From: an uncultured Thiotrichales bacterium
GTDB taxonomy: Bacteria; Pseudomonadota; Gammaproteobacteria; UWMA-0217
DNA: 64,000 nucleotides
Reading direction: 5' to 3'
Assembly: GCA_964613895.1 (NCBI GenBank)
Contig: CAZTJP010000001.1
Location: 5,386 to 69,385 of the forward strand
Position numbers and translations under genes: made by a program. Positions 29,961-51,085 of this stretch are shown here, piece by piece. Under the pieces are notes generated by a model. It saw only the letters and a program-made list of their open reading frames with translations, had not been told where the DNA came from and made no database searches. The stretch's first letter is position 1, and each line of letters starts with the position of its first letter.

Positions 29961-30494
29961 ATGAACCCGAATGCTTCAGTGAGGACAAAGAGGATCGCTG
30001 TCAGAAGCGCATGGCTGGCAGCCCTACTGCTCACGGAAAGCCTGTTCGCGGCAGACAGTGGGGTGACGCCCCCTAGCGTCCCGACGTTGACGCTCCCCGA
30101 GCGCTTTGGCCAGGCATTGGAACAGGCCGCCGCAGCAGGTACTGCCGTCGATATATCCAGCGCGTTGACCGGAGTGAATGGTTTGGCCAGCGGTTCGATC
30201 AATCACGTACAAGGCGATGTCAGCCTCTCGAACACCCCTCAAGCCCTGCAACAGGATCAGCTCACCCAGGTTATCGCCAGCAGCCAGATGAGCGCCAGCG
30301 TCGTCAACAATTCGACCACCATCGGCGTGGCGGATAGCGGCTACCGTGCAACCAATACGCTCGGCGCCGCATTCGCCAGCCACCAAGGGGCAGTCACGGT
30401 CAGCCAGTCCGCAGGCATCTCCAACACGATATCCCAGGCCATCACCTTTCAGGTTGGGCTAGACCTCAACGCGCCCTCACCCTCGGCTCAGTGA
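29961..30494 (+). CDS. secreted hypothetical protein, Ala/Ser/Thr/Gly-rich, with N-terminal signal peptide
   Basis: GGAGGA 6 nt upstream of the ATG; MNPNASVRTKRIAVRSAWLAALLLTESLFA|ADSG signal-peptide-like N-terminus; mature part low-complexity (SSALTGVNGLASGS..., SQSAGISNTISQAITFQ); no recognisable domain. Confidence 0.6.
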   Translation: MNPNASVRTKRIAVRSAWLAALLLTESLFAADSGVTPPSVPTLTLPERFGQALEQAAAAGTAVDISSALTGVNGLASGSINHVQGDVSLSNTPQALQQDQLTQVIASSQMSASVVNNSTTIGVADSGYRATNTLGAAFASHQGAVTVSQSAGISNTISQAITFQVGLDLNAPSPSAQ

Positions 30495-30675: not shown

Positions 30676-31500
30676 ATGACTTCGACAACGAAAACGACGT
30701 TTTTCGCGCTGGTTCGAGATCTGTTCGAATACCGCCAGCTACTGACCCAGATGATCCGCCGAGAGATTATCGGGCGTTATCGGGGGTCAGTGCTCGGGCT
30801 GGCCTGGTCCTTTTTCAATCCCTTGCTGATGTTACTGGTCTACACCTTCGTTTTTTCGGTGGTGTTCAAGGCGCGCTGGGGATTGCCCGAGGATCAGGGG
30901 AAGGTCAGTTATGCGACGATCCTGTTCACAGGAATGATCGTGCATGGGCTGTTTGCCGAGTGTATCAATCGAGCACCAGGACTGGTTTTGGCAAACCCAA
31001 GTTATGTCAAGAAGGTGGTATTCCCCCTGCAAATATTGCCGTGGGTCAGCATGGGGGCCGCGTTCTTCCATGCAATGGTCAGTGTGCTGATCCTTGTTAT
31101 CGCTATTTTGTTTCTCAACGGATCGTTATCGATCACAGTCATCTTTTTGCCACTGGTCCTTTTTCCGCTCATTGTCGCAACCATGGGAGTAAGCTGGTTT
31201 CTGGCATCGACCGGTGTGTATTTGCGTGATATTGGCCAAACGGTTGGATTACTGACAACAATACTGTTGTTTCTTTCTCCAGTATTCTTTCCTGTGTCAG
31301 CGTTGCCGCCCAGATTCCAGACCATCATGATGTTGAACCCGCTGACATTTATCATTGAGCAGTCACGGAATGTCCTGCTTTGGGGTAAGGGCCCTGACTG
31401 GATCGGGCTGTTCGTCTACACACTATTGAGTGCTGGGGTCGCTTGGGCGGGATACTACTGGTTCCAGAAGACGCGCAAGGGTTTTGCTGATGTCTTGTGA
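30676..31500 (+). CDS. wzm: ABC-2 type polysaccharide export permease (Wzm/KpsM-like)
   Basis: 274 aa, 6 predicted TM; N-terminal amphipathic helix REIIGRYRGSVLGLAWSFFNPLLMLLVYTFVFSVVFK typical of Wzm/TagG. Confidence 0.85.
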   Translation: MTSTTKTTFFALVRDLFEYRQLLTQMIRREIIGRYRGSVLGLAWSFFNPLLMLLVYTFVFSVVFKARWGLPEDQGKVSYATILFTGMIVHGLFAECINRAPGLVLANPSYVKKVVFPLQILPWVSMGAAFFHAMVSVLILVIAILFLNGSLSITVIFLPLVLFPLIVATMGVSWFLASTGVYLRDIGQTVGLLTTILLFLSPVFFPVSALPPRFQTIMMLNPLTFIIEQSRNVLLWGKGPDWIGLFVYTLLSAGVAWAGYYWFQKTRKGFADVL

Positions 31501-32818
31501 GACCGACATGGCGGTCAAGGTGAACCATGTCGGCAAAACCTACCAGCTCTACCACACACCAAAAGACCGGATCAAGCAGATGCTGTTGCCCCGGTTGCAA
31601 CGCCGGCTGGGGCGAGAGGCCCGCCAGTACTACACGCAGCATCACGCGCTACGCGATGTCAGTTTCTCGCTGCAAAAAGGGGAAACATTGGGTGTAATTG
31701 GACGAAATGGCGCGGGCAAGTCAACCTTGCTGCAAATCATCAGTGGAACCTTGCAGCCAACTTCGGGCGAGGTTATCGTCAATGGCAGGATCGCTGCATT
31801 GCTCGAGTTGGGCGCGGGTTTCAATGCCGAATTCAGCGGACGTGAGAACATCTTTCTTTATGGAGCGATCCTCGGGCTGGAAGGAAATGAAATCGAAGCA
31901 CGCTATGATGAAATCGTCGAATTTGCGGCTATAGGTGATTTTATAGAACAGCCGGTGAAAACCTATTCCAGCGGTATGTTTGTACGACTGGCCTTTGCAG
32001 TCGCGGCCTGCCTGGAGCCGGATATCCTGATCGTCGATGAAGCCTTGGCGGTTGGAGATGTCAAGTTTCAGGCCAAATGTTTTCGACGGTTTGAAGAGCT
32101 GATCTCCCGAGGTGTAACGATCCTGTTCGTCACTCATTCCACGGAACAGATCGTGCGCCATTGTGACCGGGCCATTCTCTTGCATGACGGTACGGTGGTA
32201 CACGATGGTGATCCCAGAGAAGTCTCCAATCGCTATATGGATCTGATGTTTGGAGTCGAAGCACCGGACCTTGCACATGATACGGAGACTACCAATGGGA
32301 TCGAAGCGAGCAATTCACCTGAAGCAGTACTGCTTGGGCGATTCGAAGAAAGGCCAGGGTATAACCCTTCGGAGTACCGTTGGGGCGATCGGTTGGCTTC
32401 GATTCGCGATTTTCATATATCGCAAGATGGGTCAGCGCATACGGTATTACTCGAATCCGGCAAGCCAGTCATCGTCCGGGCCAAAGTCGATTTTTCAAAG
32501 ACCGTGGAGGATCCGATATTCGGCCTTGCCATCAAGACACCTGATGGTGTGATGGTTTATGCATCCAACTCTCGAGATCAGAAGAGTGGACCACTCAAAC
32601 GTTTGGTCAAGGCTGGTGAATCTCTCATCATCAAATATACATTCGACAACCGACTGGTGGCGGGTGACTACCTCCTTTCGCTCGGAGTAGCACGAGATGA
32701 GGGGGGGCAGATTGTGCCAATGGATCGTCGCTTCGATTCCATTCATGTCGAAGTCAGTAATCCAGACCGAATGGGAGGACTGGCAGATTTCGAATTGAGA
32801 GTATGCCTAGAGTGTTGA
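31490..32818 (+). CDS. wzt: polysaccharide ABC exporter ATP-binding protein with C-terminal carbohydrate-binding domain (Wzt-like, copy 1)
   Basis: ATG overlapping the wzm stop (ATGTCTTGTGA). Walker A GRNGAGKST, signature YSSGMFVRLAFA, Walker B ILIVDEALAVGD, H-loop VTHS. A ~200-aa C-terminal extension with beta-rich character follows (…VLLESGKPVIVRAKVDFSK…YLLSLGVARDEG…). Confidence 0.85.
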   Translation: MSCETDMAVKVNHVGKTYQLYHTPKDRIKQMLLPRLQRRLGREARQYYTQHHALRDVSFSLQKGETLGVIGRNGAGKSTLLQIISGTLQPTSGEVIVNGRIAALLELGAGFNAEFSGRENIFLYGAILGLEGNEIEARYDEIVEFAAIGDFIEQPVKTYSSGMFVRLAFAVAACLEPDILIVDEALAVGDVKFQAKCFRRFEELISRGVTILFVTHSTEQIVRHCDRAILLHDGTVVHDGDPREVSNRYMDLMFGVEAPDLAHDTETTNGIEASNSPEAVLLGRFEERPGYNPSEYRWGDRLASIRDFHISQDGSAHTVLLESGKPVIVRAKVDFSKTVEDPIFGLAIKTPDGVMVYASNSRDQKSGPLKRLVKAGESLIIKYTFDNRLVAGDYLLSLGVARDEGGQIVPMDRRFDSIHVEVSNPDRMGGLADFELRVCLEC

Positions 32819-32974
32819 CGATGAAAACATTTGATGACAAGTGCTCGTCTATTTGGATAGATGTCACTTTCTGCTCGCGTTGGGCTGCAGTGGAATATGG
32901 CTGTTCGTGTTCATGGTGGAGGCATTCAGAGACTGTATGGATGGGTAGGGTTTGTTCTGAAAAAAACGAGGGGG

Positions 32975-34303
32975 ATGGGCGTGTCCTCTGATGTCGCTAT
33001 CGAGGTGTCTCGACTGAGCAAGTCCTATCAAATTTATAATCGACCTGGTGATCGTTTCAAGCAGATGGTGCTTCCACGGATTCGCCGTTTGTTTTCCAGG
33101 AAAGCGAAAAACTATTTTACCGAATTTCAGGCACTGAAGGACATTTCGTTTTGTGTCGAGCGAGGAGAAGCAGTCGGCATTCTGGGGCGTAACGGTAGTG
33201 GGAAGTCGACCTTGCTGCAGATTATTGCAGGTACATTGTCGCCGACCTCAGGGAACGTAGTTGCTAATGGTAGACTGACAGCCTTGCTCGAGCTTGGCTC
33301 GGGGTTCAACCCAGAGTTCTCAGGAAGGGAAAACGTTTATATGAACGGTGTCATTCTTGGTTTGACCAAAGAGGAGATCGATCAGAAATTTGAGGAAATC
33401 GTTGATTTCGCTGATATTGGTGAACATATCGATCAGCCTGTCAAGACATACTCGAGCGGAATGGTAGTGAGGCTGGCATTTGCTGTTCAGGCTTGTGTTG
33501 ATCCACAGATTCTCATTGTTGATGAAGCATTGTCGGTCGGTGATGAGAAATTTCAGAGAAAATGCTTTGACTACATCGAACGATTACGTCGTGATGGTTG
33601 CTCCATATTGCTGGTCACCCATTCGACTGCCACGGTAGAAAAGTTCTGTCAAAGAGGCGTGCTACTGCATCATGGTGAAGTTCGGGCTATTGGTTCAGCA
33701 AAAGATGTGGTGGATCAATATCACGCCTTGCTTTACGCAGATGAGCGGGCTGCCATGGATGCGTTGGAGCGGAGCCATGTAAGTGGTGGGGACAACCCGT
33801 TGGTTAATCCAAAAACAAGTAGAGAGGCAGTGGGTAGAAAACCAAATCCGTCGGATTTGAGGAAGGCAGCTTCCATTGAATATTGGGAGGTGCTGGATGA
33901 GGACGGTAACGGTTGTGCAGCTTTCCAGGCCGGAGATCAGGTGATACTACGGATGATGGTGAGGCTTTTTTGCGATATTCCTGAGCTGCAAGCGGGCTTT
34001 CTGTTACGTACGATCGAGGGTGTATCGGTGTTTGGTACCAGCACCCTATACCGGGATCGAAATATTAAGGATGTTCATGCGGGTGAGAAATATCGATTCG
34101 ATTTCAAGGTTCAACTGAATCTGTCTCCTGGAAGTTATTTTGTGACGTTTGCAGTGGCTCAGGCCATATCAGAGGCAGATATGAGATACCTGGACCGGAA
34201 AGCGGATGCTTTGATCATAAAAGTTACACAGATCCGGGTTGAAGGTACAGGAATTTGTGTGTTGCCAACATCAATTAGTGTGCATCGAGAGAGTCAGGCG
34301 TGA
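32975..34303 (+). CDS. wzt: polysaccharide ABC exporter ATP-binding protein with distinct C-terminal carbohydrate-binding domain (Wzt-like, copy 2)
   Basis: NBD ~65% identical by eye to copy 1 (GRNGSGKSTLLQIIAGTLSPTSG, YSSGMVVRLAFAV, ILIVDEALSVGDEKFQRKC), but the C-terminal ~190 aa are unrelated to those of copy 1. Start at ATG 32975 (GAGGGGG just upstream) or GTG 32981. Confidence 0.85.
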   Translation: MGVSSDVAIEVSRLSKSYQIYNRPGDRFKQMVLPRIRRLFSRKAKNYFTEFQALKDISFCVERGEAVGILGRNGSGKSTLLQIIAGTLSPTSGNVVANGRLTALLELGSGFNPEFSGRENVYMNGVILGLTKEEIDQKFEEIVDFADIGEHIDQPVKTYSSGMVVRLAFAVQACVDPQILIVDEALSVGDEKFQRKCFDYIERLRRDGCSILLVTHSTATVEKFCQRGVLLHHGEVRAIGSAKDVVDQYHALLYADERAAMDALERSHVSGGDNPLVNPKTSREAVGRKPNPSDLRKAASIEYWEVLDEDGNGCAAFQAGDQVILRMMVRLFCDIPELQAGFLLRTIEGVSVFGTSTLYRDRNIKDVHAGEKYRFDFKVQLNLSPGSYFVTFAVAQAISEADMRYLDRKADALIIKVTQIRVEGTGICVLPTSISVHRESQA

Positions 34304-43800: not shown

Positions 43801-44299
43801 CATCGGCAAGATCGACCGCGAGACCCGCGAGCGTTTCAAGGACACCTTCGACAAGGTCAACAAGTCATTGCAGGAAAAGTTTCCCAAGCTGTTCGGAGGT
43901 GGCTATGCCCACCTCGAAATGACCGAGGACGACCTGCTCACCACCGGTGTCAACGTCATGGCGCGGCCGCCGGGCAAGCGCGTAGCGAACATCCATTTAC
44001 TGTCAGGCGGTGAGAAGGCCCTGACCGCCGTGGCGCTGGTATTCTCCATCTTCGAGCTGAATCCGGCGCCGTTCTGCATGCTCGACGAAGTCGATGCGCC
44101 GCTCGATGACGCCAACGTTGGCCGTTTCTGCGACCTGGTGGCGGAAATGTCCGAGAATGTGCAATTCATATTTATCACCCATAATAAGATTACAATGGAA
44201 CTGGCCCACCAGTTGATCGGCGTCACCATGCGCGAACCCGGTGTCTCGCGGCTGGTGGATGTCGACGTTGACGAAGCAGCGATGATGGCGGCCAGCTGA
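40802..44299 (+). CDS. smc: chromosome partition protein Smc
   Basis: 1165 aa; [50 protein letters not shown]; long Q/E/R/A-rich coiled coils; C-terminal [39 protein letters not shown]. Confidence 0.93.
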   Translation: [1165 protein letters not shown]

Positions 44300-48131: not shown

Positions 48132-48735
48132 GCGCTTTGTAAGCCCAACGCCTGTTTAATCTCCGGATTACGATAATTCCCTGAAACTATCGAACGCATC
48201 CTCGGAATCTTGTGACAGAGCGATCTTTGCTGCTGCCTCAGGCGCTTCCAGCCTCGTTGTTGGCTGTCAGATGCTGTTATGCAATGCCCGTGCCGTTTTT
48301 ATCTATTTCTCTATATCATGATGTTTTTATACAGGTTTTGGCGTGACTTCCTGATCACTGAAAGGCTTGGCGGGGCAGCAATCACAACCAGACTGTAAAG
48401 TGTGCTTTACAGCAGGATTACCGGTTTCCGAGAAAATAAAATTTAATCCCGTTAAACCAACAACTTATACGTTTCCGTCTCTCTGTCATCAAAGCCTTAC
48501 ACAAACTACCTCCAGCGCAGGGTCAAGCGCGGGGTCAGGCTTGCGTTATTGCGTTTTGGGATAACAAATGTGCGGTGAAAGTGGTACTCGTTGTCAAGTC
48601 CTAGTAGACTTCGCGCCCTGTATTTTGTAAGGCTGCCGTGCATGCTGGGCCAATTGTTGTCTAACTAGTTGGTTTTTCAGTGATTATTTGGATGGCGGCC
48701 GTAGCCGATAACCTGTACTGACACCGAGATGAAAA

Positions 48736-50814
48736 ATGACTGACCTTTCGCACTATCGCAATATTGGCATATTTGCGCATGTTGATGCCGGCAAGACGAC
48801 GACAACCGAGCGGATTCTGAATCTGACAGGAAAGACCCACAAGATCGGTGAGGTACATGATGGTGAGGCAACCACGGACTTCATGGAACAGGAGCGCGAG
48901 CGCGGAATCACGATCCAGTCGGCTGCGACGACCTGTTTCTGGAAGGATCATCGGCTGAATATCATCGATACTCCGGGACACGTGGATTTCACGATCGAGG
49001 TGTATCGGTCGCTGAAAGTGCTGGATGGTGGCGTAGGCGTTTTCTGTGGCTCTGGCGGTGTGGAACCTCAGTCGGAAACGAACTGGCGCTATGCCAACGA
49101 GTCCGAGGTGGCACGGATCATTCTGGTCAACAAGCTGGATCGGATGGGCGCGGATTTTTACCGTGTGGTCGAGCAGATCAAGAATGTACTGGGGGCCAAT
49201 CCCCTGGTCATGGTGCTGCCGATCGGCATCGAGGACGATTTCGTTGGTGTGGTCGATTTGCTGACCCGCAAGGCCTGGGTTTGGGACGATTCCGGTGATC
49301 CGGCCAAGTATGAGTTGCAAGATGTGCCTGCCGACATGGTGGACAAGGTCGAGGAGTATCGCGAGCAGTTGATCGAAACGGCGATCGAGCAGGATGATGA
49401 CTTGATGGAGGCATACCTGGAGGGTGAGGAGCCGTCTCTGGAGGACATCAAGCGCTGCATTCGCAAGGGCACGATTGCGCTCGACTTTTTCCCGACCTAT
49501 TGCGGTTCGGCGTTCAAGAACAAGGGCATCCAACTGGTGCTGGATGCAGTTGTCGATTATCTGCCGAGTCCGACGGAGGTCGATCCCCAGCCCGAGGTGG
49601 ACCTGGAAGGCAATGAGACGGGCAACTATGCCGTGGTCGATCCGGACAAGCCGGTTCGGGCACTGGCGTTCAAGATCATGGACGACCGTTTTGGCGCATT
49701 GACGTTCACCCGCGTCTATTCGGGGACGATCAAGAAAGGGGATACTCTGCTCAATACCTACACCGGCAAGACGGAGCGGATCGGTCGGATCGTGGAGATG
49801 CACGCGGATTCGCGCGAAGAGCTGGATTCCTGTCAGGCTGGTGACATCGTAGCCTTTGTGGGCCTGAAGAATACCCAGACCGGCCATACGCTGGCTGATC
49901 CAGACAATCCCGCAACGCTGGAGCCAATGGTTTTCCCTGATCCGGTGATTTCGATTGCGATCAAGCCCAAGGACAAGGGTGGTTCCGAGAAGATGGGTAT
50001 CGCGCTGTCCAAGATGATGCAGGAAGATCCCTCCTTCCGGGTCGAAACGGATGAGGATTCGGGCGAGACGATCATCAAGGGCATGGGTGAGCTGCATCTG
50101 GATATCAAGGTCGATATCCTCAAGCGTACCCACGGGGTCGAGGTTGAGGTTGGCAAGCCGCAGGTGGCGTATCGTGAAACGATCACCCAGCGGGTGGAAG
50201 ACAGCTATACCCACAAGAAGCAGACAGGCGGTTCCGGTCAGTTCGCAAAGATCGACTATGTGATCGAGCCGGGCGAGAAGAACAGCGGTTTCCAGTTCGA
50301 ATCGGTAGTGACCGGCGGCAATGTCCCCCGCGAGTTCTGGCCGGCGGTGGAAAAAGGGTTCGCCACCAGCATGGAGGAAGGCGTGCTGGCGGGCTTCCCG
50401 TTGCTGGACGTGAAGGTGACATTGGTCGATGGTGGCTTCCACCCGGTGGACTCCTCCGCAGTGGCCTACGAGATTGCAGCCAAGGCGGCCTATCGTCAGT
50501 CGGTTCCGAAAGCGGGGCCGCAGTTGTTGGAGCCGATCATGAAAGTGGATGTGTTCACGCCGGAAGAACACGTCGGCGATGTGATCGGTGATCTGAACCG
50601 TCGTCGCGGCATGGTGCAGGGTCAGGAATCGGGCCCGACCGGGGTGCGCATCAAGGCAGAAGCGCCGTTGAGCGAAATGTTCGGTTATATCGGAACCCTG
50701 CGAACCATGACATCCGGGCGTGGCCAGTTTTCGATGGAGTTCGACCATTACGCGCCTTGCCCCAACAATGTCGCTGAAGAGGTGATCAAGGAGATCAACG
50801 AAGCCAAGGGGTAG
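48736..50814 (+). CDS. fusA: elongation factor G paralog (EF-G2 type)
   Basis: 692 aa; [86 protein letters not shown]; lacks the SGMxxQxxxH segment present in the str-operon copy; all five EF-G domains recognisable. Confidence 0.9.
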
Positions 50815-50900
50815 CCCGGATTCCGCCAGGTCGCTACTGCGACCGCCCAATGTGGCGCGCTGACTGATGTTCACTCGGTCGAGTGCCGGATCACCCGTTC
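50812..50900. repeat. intergenic repeat family member B
   Basis: Starts at the fusA2 stop codon. AGCCCGGATTCCGCC...CTACTGCGACCGCCCAATGTGGCGCGCTGACTG...CCGGATCACCCGTTC matches copy C (…GACTGCGGCCACCCAACGCGGCGCGCTGACTG…CCGGATCCAGTTCAC). Confidence 0.45.
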
Positions 50901-51085
50901 GGTCCGTGCGTTTCCACGCTTCTGCGTGGGAACGCGAACCCTATTGTTGGTGAGCCTCGGATTACCGCGCAGGAATCCCGGGGCCATGCAACCCACGCAC
51001 CCACGCCGCTGCCATGCTGGCGCTGATCGATTCTGAACTGTTCCCATCGCCACAATGCCGGTTTGATCCTTGGTAAGATAGGGCG

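What the first reader, a model, noticed from the sequence alone, without database searches (positions are those of the whole stretch)
31490..34303. Tandem Wzt ATPases with near-identical NBDs but unrelated C-terminal domains
The two ATP-binding proteins share ~65% identity through the nucleotide-binding domain, pointing to a recent tandem duplication. Their ~190-200-aa C-terminal extensions show no detectable similarity to each other. In characterised ABC-dependent O-antigen systems (E. coli O9a, Klebsiella O12) the Wzt C-terminal domain is the module that recognises the chain-terminating cap and gates export. Two different recognition domains next to a single Wzm could mean a heterodimeric exporter with two cap readers, or the export of two differently capped glycans.
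Basis: partly seen in the sequence, partly recalled or inferred. Interest (0 to 1): 0.66.

Follow-up and report, generated by a model that had tools for sequence, protein, structure and literature searches.

The report
Mosaic O-antigen exporter, two Wzt ATPases
One membrane-channel gene (wzm) is followed by two intact Wzt export ATPases that are not recent duplicates: the first belongs with the resident wzm, the second arrived with the downstream sugar-polymer genes, so this looks like an unfinished swap of a surface-polysaccharide gene cluster rather than a new kind of transporter.

Summary
Two complete Wzt genes do follow a single wzm: wzt1 at 31490-32818 and wzt2 at 32981/32975-34303. Two parts of the description are wrong.

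- **NBD identity.** The nucleotide-binding domains are 57% identical, not about 65%. That is the background level for this family. DNA identity is 56%, and 30% at third codon positions.
- **C-terminal domains.** They are not unrelated. Both are Wzt_C carbohydrate-binding domains (Pfam E~1e-26 each) and align to each other (26% identity, E=8e-8). Wzt1's is closest to the E. coli O9a domain; Wzt2's is closest to the Aquifex aeolicus domain.

Neither gene came from a recent duplication. Every diverged relative found has one wzt.
- Wzt1 (66%) and the window's Wzm (70-72%) match loci of the form wzm-wzt-[methyltransferase/GT]. One of these sits at the same queF-smc site.
- Wzt2 (65-68%) matches loci in which wzt is followed by the same GT927/GT386/EptA-like genes as here.

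So the locus is a mosaic: a resident wzm-wzt1 plus an imported wzt2-GT-GT-ept block. The junction recurs in independent assemblies.

Most likely Wzt2 is the cap reader for the glycan made here, working on the resident Wzm. Wzt1 is a retained subunit whose cognate terminator is missing from the locus. A heterodimer, or export of a second glycan, is not excluded. The arrangement is rare: 0 of 160 sampled loci have adjacent wzt genes. It has a precedent in Burkholderia.

The parts
30676..31500 (+). wzm, ABC-2 permease (274 aa). It is the only wzm in the window and is of the resident type.
   Evidence: Pfam ABC2_membrane E=7.5e-25. It is 70-72% identical to the Wzm of Wzt1-type loci L005/L088/L089, against 51-60% to the Wzm of Wzt2-type loci. 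GC3 is 0.63, like the flanking genes. It is the only hit to the Wzm HMM in 64 kb.
31490..32818 (+). wzt1 (442 aa). The NBD is aa 1-250 and the Wzt_C carbohydrate-binding domain is aa ~295-433 (nt 32372-32788). The gene overlaps wzm by 11 nt (ATGTCTTGTGA), the same coupling seen in single-wzt relatives.
   Evidence: ABC_tran plus Wzt_C E=4e-26. The CTD's best solved match is E. coli O9a Wzt-C 2R5O, E=1.9e-20. AF2 pLDDT is 90.3, and Foldseek to 7K2T/8DKU gives E~1e-38 over ~428 columns. Orthologues P0001/P0002 are 66% identical and sit in loci of the form wzm-wzt-[MT-GT].
32819..32980 (.). Spacer between wzt1 and wzt2; the presumed recombination junction.
   Evidence: No wzm or MT-GT remnant was detected (tblastn; Smith-Waterman against shuffles; Wzm C-terminus HMM, 164 of 2000 shuffles score as well). 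No promoter- or terminator-like site and no repeat. GC is 0.47.
32981..34303 (+). wzt2 (440 aa from GTG 32981; 442 aa from ATG 32975). NBD plus Wzt_C domain (aa ~297-427 counted from 32975, nt 33863-34255). It overlaps the GT927 start by 4 nt, as in its orthologues.
   Evidence: ABC_tran plus Wzt_C E=6e-26. The CTD's best solved match is the A. aeolicus Wzt CBD 8DKY/6O14, E=5.5e-11. AF2 pLDDT is 81.8, and Foldseek to 8DL0/8DKU gives E~1e-39. Orthologues are 65-68% identical and sit in wzm-wzt-GT927-like loci L002/L086/L090. The RBS GAGGGGG lies 6 nt before GTG 32981, and a 440-aa cluster member recorded from an NCBI source (P0364) matches that start.
34300..37083 (+). GT927, a two-module glycosyltransferase. 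It has an N-terminal GT4 module, a central helical (coiled-coil-looking) segment and a C-terminal TuaH-like GT module. It is the presumed polymerase, possibly also the terminator.
   Evidence: Pfam Glyco_transf_4 E=1.7e-25. NCBIfam TuaH-like match at aa 666-910, E=1.5e-22. It is 48% identical over its full length to the gene that follows wzt in L002 and L086. GC3 is 0.47.
37080..38240 (+). GT386, a TuaH-like glycosyltransferase and paralogue of the GT927 C-terminal module.
   Evidence: NCBIfam TuaH-like E=8.6e-14. It is 46-48% identical to L002_344 and L086_374 in the same position.
38265..40286 (+). EptA/CptA-family membrane phosphoethanolamine-transferase-like protein (673 aa), the last gene of the imported block. 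Its stop lies 2 nt from the convergent queF.
   Evidence: Pfam Sulfatase E=1.4e-22 plus EptA_B_N. NCBIfam P_eth_NH2_trans E=7.5e-39. It is 52% identical to the sulfatase-family gene in the same position in L002 and L086.
40289..40678 (-). queF, the conserved right flank (followed by smc). A relative (L004) uses the same site for a different O-PS cluster.
   Evidence: 89% identical to L004 QueF, which likewise lies between an O-PS cluster and smc.

Best explanation
The 9.6-kb low-GC island (30676-40286) is an ABC-transporter-dependent polysaccharide (O-antigen-type) operon of mosaic origin.

**Origin**
- The resident pair wzm-wzt1 was retained.
- A foreign block, wzt2-GT927-GT386-ept, replaced whatever followed wzt1. 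In relatives that is a methyltransferase-GT terminator/polymerase.
- This resembles the known habit of these loci of swapping everything from wzt onward while keeping wzm. Here the crossover fell one gene further downstream, so both wzt genes survive.

**Mechanism (inferred from characterised Wzm/Wzt systems)**
1. GT927 and GT386 polymerise the glycan on an undecaprenyl-linked primer in the cytoplasm.
2. The C-terminal carbohydrate-binding domain of Wzt2, which has travelled with these GTs in other genomes, recognises the finished or capped chain end.
3. A Wzt2 dimer powers export through the resident Wzm dimer.
4. The EptA-like enzyme decorates the glycan in the periplasm.

**Wzt1**
- It is an intact, probably still expressed hold-over with an O9a-like (methyl or methyl-phosphate cap type) reader.
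- Its cognate terminator is absent from the locus.
- It is therefore predicted to be redundant or a competitor for Wzm, or at most to contribute NBD activity.

**Shown versus inferred**
- Shown: domain identities, intact motifs, the two separate ancestries, the synteny and the reality of the junction.
- Inferred: which Wzt is used, the subunit stoichiometry and the nature of the caps.
For: 1. **Not duplicates.**
   - NBD identity of 57% is the family background. The paralogue ranks 123rd and 182nd of 240 homologues.
   - Nucleotide identity is 56%, and 30% at third codon positions.
   - There is no DNA repeat between the genes.
   - Each Wzt is closer to its own type in every 50-column window, although the first ~50 columns barely discriminate for Wzt2 (50.0 vs 47.9%). 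There is no sign of a chimera.
2. **Two ancestries.**
   - Wzt1 is 66% identical to P0001/P0002.
   - The window's Wzm is 70-72% identical to the Wzm of those loci (L005, L088, L089), against 51-60% to the Wzm of Wzt2-type loci.
   - Wzt2, GT927, GT386 and Ept are 65-68, 48, 46-48 and 52% identical to the colinear genes of L002 and L086; L090, a short contig, covers Wzt2 and the start of the GT.
3. **Same chromosomal site.** L004 carries its Wzt1-type cluster next to queF-smc, and its QueF is 89% identical.
4. **Gene junctions match each parent.** The wzm/wzt1 overlap is 11 nt and the wzt2/GT927 overlap is 4 nt.
5. **Composition.** GC3 of the flanking genes is 0.62-0.73. wzm is 0.63, wzt1 is 0.55, and wzt2 through ept are 0.46-0.50.
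6. **The Wzt1-type terminator is missing here.** In L004 and L088 the gene after wzt starts with a SAM methyltransferase domain; L004's complete 1303-aa protein continues into GT1 and GT2 modules. No methyltransferase or kinase lies in the window's island.
7. **Precedent that a resident Wzm works with an imported wzt block.** In P. syringae, wzm follows the core phylogeny while wzt-wbdD-wbdA is swapped, and an engineered swap restores LPS (PMC7820976).
8. **The pair is not conserved elsewhere.**
   - All 9 related contigs have one wzt.
   - 0 of 80 genome loci and 0 of 80 metagenome loci have adjacent wzt genes.
Against: - Wzt1 shows no decay. The ORF is intact and all catalytic motifs are present.
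- Wzt1 keeps all 14 CTD positions that are invariant in its 58-member family.
- There is no rate acceleration relative to its orthologues (Tajima tests).
- The only wzt1 SNP between the assemblies is synonymous.
- These points fit continued use as well as they fit a very recent event.
- No scar (wzm or MT-GT remnant, IS element or repeat) marks the junction.
- The GC3 step between wzt1 and wzt2 is modest. A similar wzm-to-wzt gradient exists in L004.
- The closest relatives are only 65-68% identical, so the donor, the recipient and the timing are unknown.
- The rest of the genome was not available. A cognate terminator or a second glycan cluster for Wzt1 could lie elsewhere.
Confidence: 0.6

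Rival explanations
1. Heterodimeric exporter. Wzt1 and Wzt2 form a mixed dimer on one Wzm dimer. The result is either a transporter with two different cap readers or one with a single productive reader.
For: - Both genes are intact, canonical and apparently co-transcribed. There is no terminator- or promoter-like site in the spacer.
- Both retain their family-invariant residues.
- In A. aeolicus the CBD dimer engages one NBD at a time and forms a single O-antigen pocket (PMC9445017). One cognate CBD might therefore suffice in principle.
Against: - The pair is absent from every diverged relative and from 160 sampled Wzt loci.
- The two genes have separate ancestries, each as the sole wzt of its locus type.
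- There is none of the asymmetric or degenerate ATP site that many obligate heterodimeric ABC ATPases show.
- The CBDs are only 26% identical. In the A. aeolicus structures the CBDs act as a dimer and the neighbouring protomer contributes a cap-contacting residue. Whether CBDs this different can pair was not tested.
Confidence: 0.15
2. Two alternative homodimeric ATPases share one Wzm to export two differently capped glycans. Wzt2 would serve the GT927 product. Wzt1 would serve a methyl-capped glycan whose synthesis genes lie elsewhere in the genome.
For: - The Wzt1 CBD is intact and O9a-like with no sign of relaxed constraint.
- Two wzt genes with one wzm are conserved across B. pseudomallei serotype B-type O-antigen clusters (PMC3541218). 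Such sets can therefore be maintained.
Against: - There are no other glycan genes anywhere in the 64-kb window.
- In all Wzt1-type relatives the terminator/polymerase gene lies immediately after wzt, and that position is now occupied by wzt2.
- The rest of the genome could not be examined.
Confidence: 0.17
3. Recent tandem duplication followed by rapid divergence or replacement of the C-terminal domain.
For: Equal length (442 aa), the same domain order and adjacency.
Against: - Synonymous sites are saturated, with 30% third-position identity.
- At least 120-180 proteins from other organisms are closer to each NBD than the paralogue is.
- Each whole gene, NBD and CTD alike, tracks a different orthologue group.
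Confidence: 0.02
4. Assembly chimera joining two strains' clusters.
For: The source is a metagenome, and O-antigen loci vary between strains.
Against: The same junction, spacer included, appears in three independent assemblies at 99.9% or higher identity: the window, ENA ERZ27262647 and Logan SRR33214773. Cluster members also occur on a JGI 14-kb contig.
Confidence: 0.01

Closest known systems
E. coli O9a / O8 (Klebsiella O3/O5) Wzm-Wzt with a C-terminal carbohydrate-binding module (PDB 2R5O)
   Same: - NBD followed by a Wzt_C beta-sandwich.
- The Wzt1 CTD matches 2R5O at E=1.9e-20 and shares the EYRWG and P(L/M)DRR(Y/F)DSI stretches.
- Orthologous Wzt1-type loci encode a methyltransferase-bearing terminator next to wzt, as the O8/O9a systems do with WbdD (own knowledge; PMC3482155 title and abstract).
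   Different: In this window the methyltransferase/terminator partner is absent, and a second Wzt of another CBD subtype follows.
Aquifex aeolicus WzmWzt (PDB 7K2T, 8DKU, CBD 6O14/8DKY)
   Same: - Both models superpose on the full-length protein.
- The Wzt2 CTD has its best solved match in this CBD, E=5.5e-11.
   Different: In the phmmer alignment, the residues 'hw' of the A. aeolicus CBD, which I take to include the methyl-lid Trp362 (own residue count, off by one, not verified), fall in an insertion that Wzt2 lacks. The cap read by Wzt2 is therefore probably different and remains unknown.
Pseudomonas syringae CPA 'TET operon' allele replacement (PMC7820976)
   Same: - wzm stays with the core genome, while the segment from wzt through the GT and terminator genes is exchanged horizontally.
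- An imported wzt block functions with the resident wzm.
   Different: There the resident wzt is replaced. Here the breakpoint lies after the resident wzt, so two wzt genes remain.
Burkholderia pseudomallei serotype B/B2 O-antigen clusters with two wzt and one wzm (PMC3541218); Massilia violaceinigra with two wzt (PMC9834719)
   Same: One permease gene with two Wzt-type ATPase genes in a single polysaccharide cluster.
   Different: - In Burkholderia the set is conserved across serotypes and, judging by the locus tags, the wzt genes flank wzm.
- Their CBD content and function were not analysed in those papers or here.
Klebsiella pneumoniae O7 ORF6 / O12 WbbB multidomain terminator-polymerases (PMC11231755)
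   Same: - The L004 1303-aa protein (N-terminal methyltransferase, then GT modules) has the ORF6-O7 type of layout.
- GT927 has two GT modules separated by a helical segment, like these 'made-to-measure' enzymes.
   Different: - GT927 has no recognisable methyltransferase, kinase or GT99 Kdo-transferase module.
- Its terminating chemistry is unassigned.

Membership tests
Wzt (NBD subunit of ABC-transporter-dependent O-PS exporters with CBM) | ABC nucleotide-binding domain with intact Walker A, signature, Walker B/catalytic Glu, D-loop and H-loop | tested here: met
   Both proteins hit ABC_tran at E~1e-23. All motif residues are invariant across 18 Wzt proteins including both window proteins. 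The NBDs match A. aeolicus Wzt at E=1e-67 and 1e-74.
Wzt (NBD subunit of ABC-transporter-dependent O-PS exporters with CBM) | C-terminal Wzt_C beta-sandwich carbohydrate-binding domain | tested here: met
   - PF14524 at E=4e-26 (Wzt1) and 6e-26 (Wzt2), both above the gathering score.
- PDB sequence hits to 2R5O, 5HNO and 8DKY/6O14.
- All-beta C-terminal domains in the AF2 models, which align to full-length Wzt.
Wzt (NBD subunit of ABC-transporter-dependent O-PS exporters with CBM) | Partner ABC-2 permease Wzm encoded alongside, usually translationally coupled | tested here: met
   - wzm 30676-31500 overlaps wzt1 by 11 nt.
- wzt2 has no wzm of its own, and there is no second wzm in the window.
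Wzt (NBD subunit of ABC-transporter-dependent O-PS exporters with CBM) | Cognate chain-terminating enzyme in the locus that makes the cap the CBM reads | tested here: inconclusive
   - There is no methyltransferase, kinase or GT99 domain in the island.
- Wzt1-type relatives have a methyltransferase-GT gene next to wzt, which is absent here.
- For Wzt2 the terminator may be a module of GT927, but this is unassigned.
Wzt (NBD subunit of ABC-transporter-dependent O-PS exporters with CBM) | Cap-dependent glycan binding and export | not testable with these tools
   Needs glycan structure determination, CBD pull-downs and deletion mutants.
Obligate heterodimeric ABC ATPase pairs | The two paralogues co-occur and are conserved together across diverged genomes | tested here: not met
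   - All 9 related contigs carry one wzt.
- 0 of 160 sampled loci have adjacent wzt genes.
- The pair is seen only in assemblies at 99.9% or higher identity.
Obligate heterodimeric ABC ATPase pairs | Asymmetry between the two NBDs (one degenerate ATP site) | tested here: not met
   Both NBDs carry fully canonical motifs. This feature is common in such pairs but not universal.
Recent tandem duplicates | Each other's closest relatives, with residual synonymous-site or DNA similarity | tested here: not met
   - Paralogue rank is 123 and 182 of 240.
- Nucleotide identity is 56%, and 30% at third codon positions.
- No extended DNA repeat.

The most novel reading that the evidence does not exclude
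The locus encodes a working three-component exporter. A single Wzm dimer accepts Wzt1 and Wzt2 as a mixed dimer, or as interchangeable homodimers, so one channel is gated by two different cap-reading domains. This would broaden what can be exported, or buffer the cell during an O-antigen switch. It would be a natural demonstration that Wzt reader modules can be mixed on one permease.
Probability: 0.15. Interest if true: 0.65.

Novelty: new variant of a known kind. Interest (0 to 1): 0.3.

Why it matters
**Significance if the main reading holds**
- It is a snapshot of how ABC-dependent O-antigen loci diversify.
- Transporter reader (Wzt) and polymerase/terminator genes move as one block, and the permease (Wzm) stays. 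A slightly misplaced crossover can leave a cell with two readers for one channel.
- This supports the modular view of Wzm/Wzt specificity taken from E. coli O8/O9a and P. syringae.
- It offers a natural test case for whether a foreign Wzt can use a 51-60%-diverged Wzm, and whether a stranded Wzt interferes.

**Limits**
- It is not a new transport mechanism.
- The organism is an uncultured gammaproteobacterium, so practical impact is small.

Tried and rejected
- **Remnant of a second wzm or of the replaced MT-GT gene in the 156/162-bp spacer.** Not found.
  - tblastn found nothing better than E~0.1-0.3.
  - Smith-Waterman scores fell within the shuffle range.
  - A Wzm C-terminus HMM scored 2.5 bits, and 164 of 2000 shuffles did as well.
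  - An apparent W-x-G-F...K-T-R-G resemblance in a MAFFT alignment did not survive these tests.
- **Internal crossover or chimeric Wzt.** Rejected. Each protein is closer to its own type in every window.
- **Relaxed constraint on Wzt1.** Tajima relative-rate tests against two orthologues and four outgroups showed no full-length or CTD acceleration. One of eight NBD-only comparisons reached p=0.04, uncorrected.
- **Promoter, terminator, IS element or repeats at the junction.** Nothing above the shuffle expectation.
- **Sharp compositional boundary.** There is only a gradient, which is also seen in L004. It supports the mosaic reading but is not decisive.
- **Closer relatives or other double-wzt loci.**
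  - They yielded 0 adjacent pairs. One locus (L055) has a second wzt 7 kb away.
- **O9a binding residues.** I tried to read Mann et al. 2019 (JBC and Glycobiology) for them. The papers are not held, so no residue-level claims are made from memory.
- **GT927 against solved structures.** Only generic GT4 hits.

Full report
**What is there**

On the + strand, a compact low-GC island (about 0.47-0.51 GC, against about 0.57 in the flanks) holds six genes:

| Gene | Coordinates | Product |
|---|---|---|
| wzm | 30676-31500 | ABC-2 permease |
| wzt1 | 31490-32818 | 442 aa |
| wzt2 | 32981-34303 (alternative ATG 32975) | 440/442 aa |
| GT927 | 34300-37083 | two-module glycosyltransferase |
| GT386 | 37080-38240 | TuaH-like glycosyltransferase |
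| ept | 38265-40286 | EptA/CptA-family membrane transferase |

- To the left lie dxs and a small secreted ORF. To the right lie queF and smc.
- The rest of the window is housekeeping: ribosomal protein genes and rpoA on the left; ligA, the PDH complex and Mla on the right.
- It contains no other wzm, wzt or glycan genes.
- Dxs relatives place the source in an uncultured gammaproteobacterium. Identity is 74% to 'Thiotrichales' MAGs and 69% to Thiohalobacter.

**Checking the observation**

The tandem Wzt pair is real and intact.
- Both proteins are ABC_tran plus Wzt_C.
- Both carry every residue that is invariant in an alignment of 18 diverse Wzt proteins, including Walker A, YSSGM, Walker B/Glu, the D-loop and the H-loop.
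- The same wzm-wzt1-wzt2 junction is present in an ENA assembly (99.90% over 21.3 kb) and in a Logan assembly of another run (99.94% over 3.5 kb). It is therefore not a chimera.

- NBD identity is 57% (142/249), not about 65%.
- The C-terminal domains are not unrelated.
  - They align at 26% identity, E=8e-8.
  - Each matches Pfam Wzt_C at E~1e-26.
  - Each matches solved Wzt carbohydrate-binding domains. Wzt1 matches E. coli O9a 2R5O at 1.9e-20 and the O12-type 5HNO at 5.5e-4. Wzt2 matches A. aeolicus 8DKY/6O14 at 5.5e-11 and 2R5O at 4e-9.
  - AlphaFold models (pLDDT 90.3 and 81.8) show all-beta C-terminal domains. They align over about 425-432 columns to full-length A. aeolicus Wzt at E~1e-38 to 1e-40.

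The premise of 'unrelated' domains is still wrong. They are two subtypes of one domain family.

**Not a recent duplication**

- An NBD identity of 57% is simply the family background. Among the 240 listed homologues, the paralogue ranks 123rd for the Wzt1 NBD and 182nd for the Wzt2 NBD.
- Median NBD identity is 62% (Wzt1) and 70% (Wzt2) to each protein's own hit set, against 55-60% to the other set.
- The two NBD coding regions are 56% identical at the DNA level. Third codon positions are 30% identical, which is saturated.
- No DNA repeat links the genes.
- In a sliding window, each protein is closer to its own orthologue group in every window, NBD and CTD alike. The first ~50 columns barely discriminate for Wzt2 (50.0 vs 47.9%). 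There is no sign of a chimeric gene.

**Two ancestries joined in one operon**

*Type 1 loci.*
- The best full-length relatives of Wzt1 (66%, P0001/P0002) sit in loci with wzm, a single wzt and then a large gene that starts with a SAM methyltransferase domain (L004/L005 and L088; L089 is too short to show the downstream gene).
- L004's complete 1303-aa protein continues into GT1 and GT2 modules.
- The window's Wzm is 70-72% identical to the Wzm of these loci.
- L004 carries its cluster at the same chromosomal site, next to queF (89% identical) and smc.

*Type 2 loci.*
- The best relatives of Wzt2 (65-68%) sit in loci with their own wzm and a single wzt (L002/L003, L086/L087, L090).
- These continue with the same downstream genes as the window:

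| Window gene | Identity to colinear gene in L002/L086 |
|---|---|
| GT927 | 48% |
| GT386 | 46-48% |
| EptA-like | 52% |

- Their Wzm is only 51-60% identical to the window's.

*Junction details match each parent.*
- The wzm/wzt1 overlap of 11 nt is the type-1 and type-2 coupling motif.
- The 4-nt wzt2/GT927 overlap is that of the type-2 loci.
- GC3 falls from 0.62-0.73 in the flanks and 0.63 in wzm, to 0.55 in wzt1, to 0.46-0.50 from wzt2 through ept. A milder gradient also exists in L004.

*Simplest history.* A type-2 block beginning at wzt replaced the genes downstream of a resident type-1 wzm-wzt pair.

*Closest described process.* This is the P. syringae CPA/TET locus. There wzm follows the core phylogeny, the segment from wzt onward is exchanged, and an engineered swap works with the resident wzm (PMC7820976). 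Here the left breakpoint lies after the resident wzt, not before it.

*No scar.* No remnant of a second wzm or of the replaced gene could be shown in the spacer. No promoter, terminator or mobile-element signal is present there.

**How it most likely works**

The mechanism is inferred from characterised systems: E. coli O8/O9a, K. pneumoniae O12/O4/O7 and A. aeolicus (and own knowledge of Cuthbertson et al. 2005/2007).

1. The GTs polymerise the glycan on a lipid carrier in the cytoplasm.
2. A terminal modification is read by the Wzt C-terminal domain.
3. The Wzt dimer drives export through the Wzm dimer.

Wzt2 has co-travelled with GT927, GT386 and ept in at least three other genome backgrounds. 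It is therefore the likely reader for the polymer made here, and it must use the resident Wzm.

The Wzt1 reader is O9a-like. In its native loci it sits next to a methyltransferase-bearing terminator of the same architecture class as K. pneumoniae O7 ORF6. No methyltransferase or kinase is present in this island. Wzt1 is therefore probably a hold-over that is redundant or competes for Wzm.

Against simple decay:
- Wzt1 keeps all family-invariant CTD positions (Y291 N292 E295 R297 W298 G299 ... D412 R413 R414 D416).
- It shows no rate acceleration.
- Its only SNP between the assemblies is synonymous.

Either the event is recent or Wzt1 is still used.

**Rivals**

- *Heterodimer, about 0.15.* It has no comparative support. 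The pair is not conserved in any diverged genome and both ATP sites are canonical. It is not excluded, and the single-pocket asymmetric mechanism seen in A. aeolicus makes a one-reader heterodimer conceivable.
- *Two glycans through one Wzm, about 0.17.* This needs a Wzt1-cognate synthesis cluster elsewhere in the genome, which could not be checked.
- *Recent duplication and assembly chimera.* Both are effectively refuted.

**How unusual**

- None of 80 diverse genome loci and none of 80 metagenome loci has two adjacent wzt genes. Of the metagenome loci, 38 have at least 1.5 kb on both sides.
- One locus (L055, Nitrospirota) has a second wzt 7 kb away.
- The literature notes two wzt plus one wzm in B. 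pseudomallei serotype B-type clusters, and two wzt in Massilia violaceinigra. Neither case has functional analysis.

**Verdict**

This is an ordinary Wzm/Wzt glycan-export system with an uncommon mosaic arrangement that known recombination behaviour explains well. It is of modest interest as a natural experiment in transporter modularity, and it is not a new kind of system.

Noticed in passing
window 34300-37083 (GT927), about aa 420-490 = nt 35560-35770: Between the N-terminal GT4 module and the C-terminal TuaH-like GT module lies a charged, heptad-looking helical stretch (…LDNRIGALRKELDLKTTELDAIKNQLEQSRNENADIKMYQEALLRENK…). It resembles the coiled-coil 'rulers' of WbbB, WbdD and K. pneumoniae O7 ORF6. 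No coiled-coil predictor or structure model was run. The C-terminal module is a paralogue of GT386 (29% identity).
   Followed up: partly
window 38265-40286: An EptA/CptA-family phosphoethanolamine-transferase-like membrane protein is a conserved member of the Wzt2-type cassette; L002 and L086 have it in the same position at 52% identity. This suggests a periplasmic phospho-substituent on the exported glycan rather than on lipid A. Its stop codon lies only 2 nt from the convergent queF.
   Followed up: partly
window 40289-44299 and L004 20081-21230: The site next to queF-smc holds different ABC-dependent polysaccharide clusters in this organism and in the relative GCA_054037895.1, while the left flanks differ (dxs here, secA/argJ/wbpM-like there). 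This looks like a hot spot for cluster replacement.
   Followed up: partly
window 29961-30494: A 177-aa ORF just upstream of wzm has a signal-peptide-like N-terminus and an Ala/Ser/Thr/Gln-rich body. It has no Pfam hit, and only a weak sub-threshold NCBIfam match to the functional-amyloid subunit FapB (E=6e-5, 22.6 bits against a cutoff of 190).
   Followed up: no
window 32861-32981: The wzt2 ORF is open for 38-40 codons upstream of the likely start. Recorded products for this gene are 440, 468 and 480 aa (P0364, P0121/P0363, P0365). GTG 32981, with GAGGGGG 6 nt upstream, fits both the RBS spacing and the MSSE/D N-terminus of the homologues.
   Followed up: yes
window 48664-50940 (- strand): A 759-aa ORF with no Pfam match at E<=1e-5, set among housekeeping genes.
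   Followed up: no
L055 2265-12931 (Nitrospirota MAG CAWBGA010000004.1): This is the only sampled locus with two Wzt-type NBD genes. One follows wzm and lacks a detectable Wzt_C domain. The other lies 7 kb downstream and has a weak Wzt_C match.
   Followed up: no
L004 11230-15141; L088 2402-4429: The gene immediately after wzt in Wzt1-type loci starts with a SAM methyltransferase domain. L004's complete 1303-aa product fuses it to GT1- and GT2-family modules, a layout like K. pneumoniae O7 ORF6. L088's copy is cut off by the contig end at 676 aa, and only the methyltransferase domain is detected. This fits a methyl-type cap read by the O9a-like CBD.
   Followed up: partly
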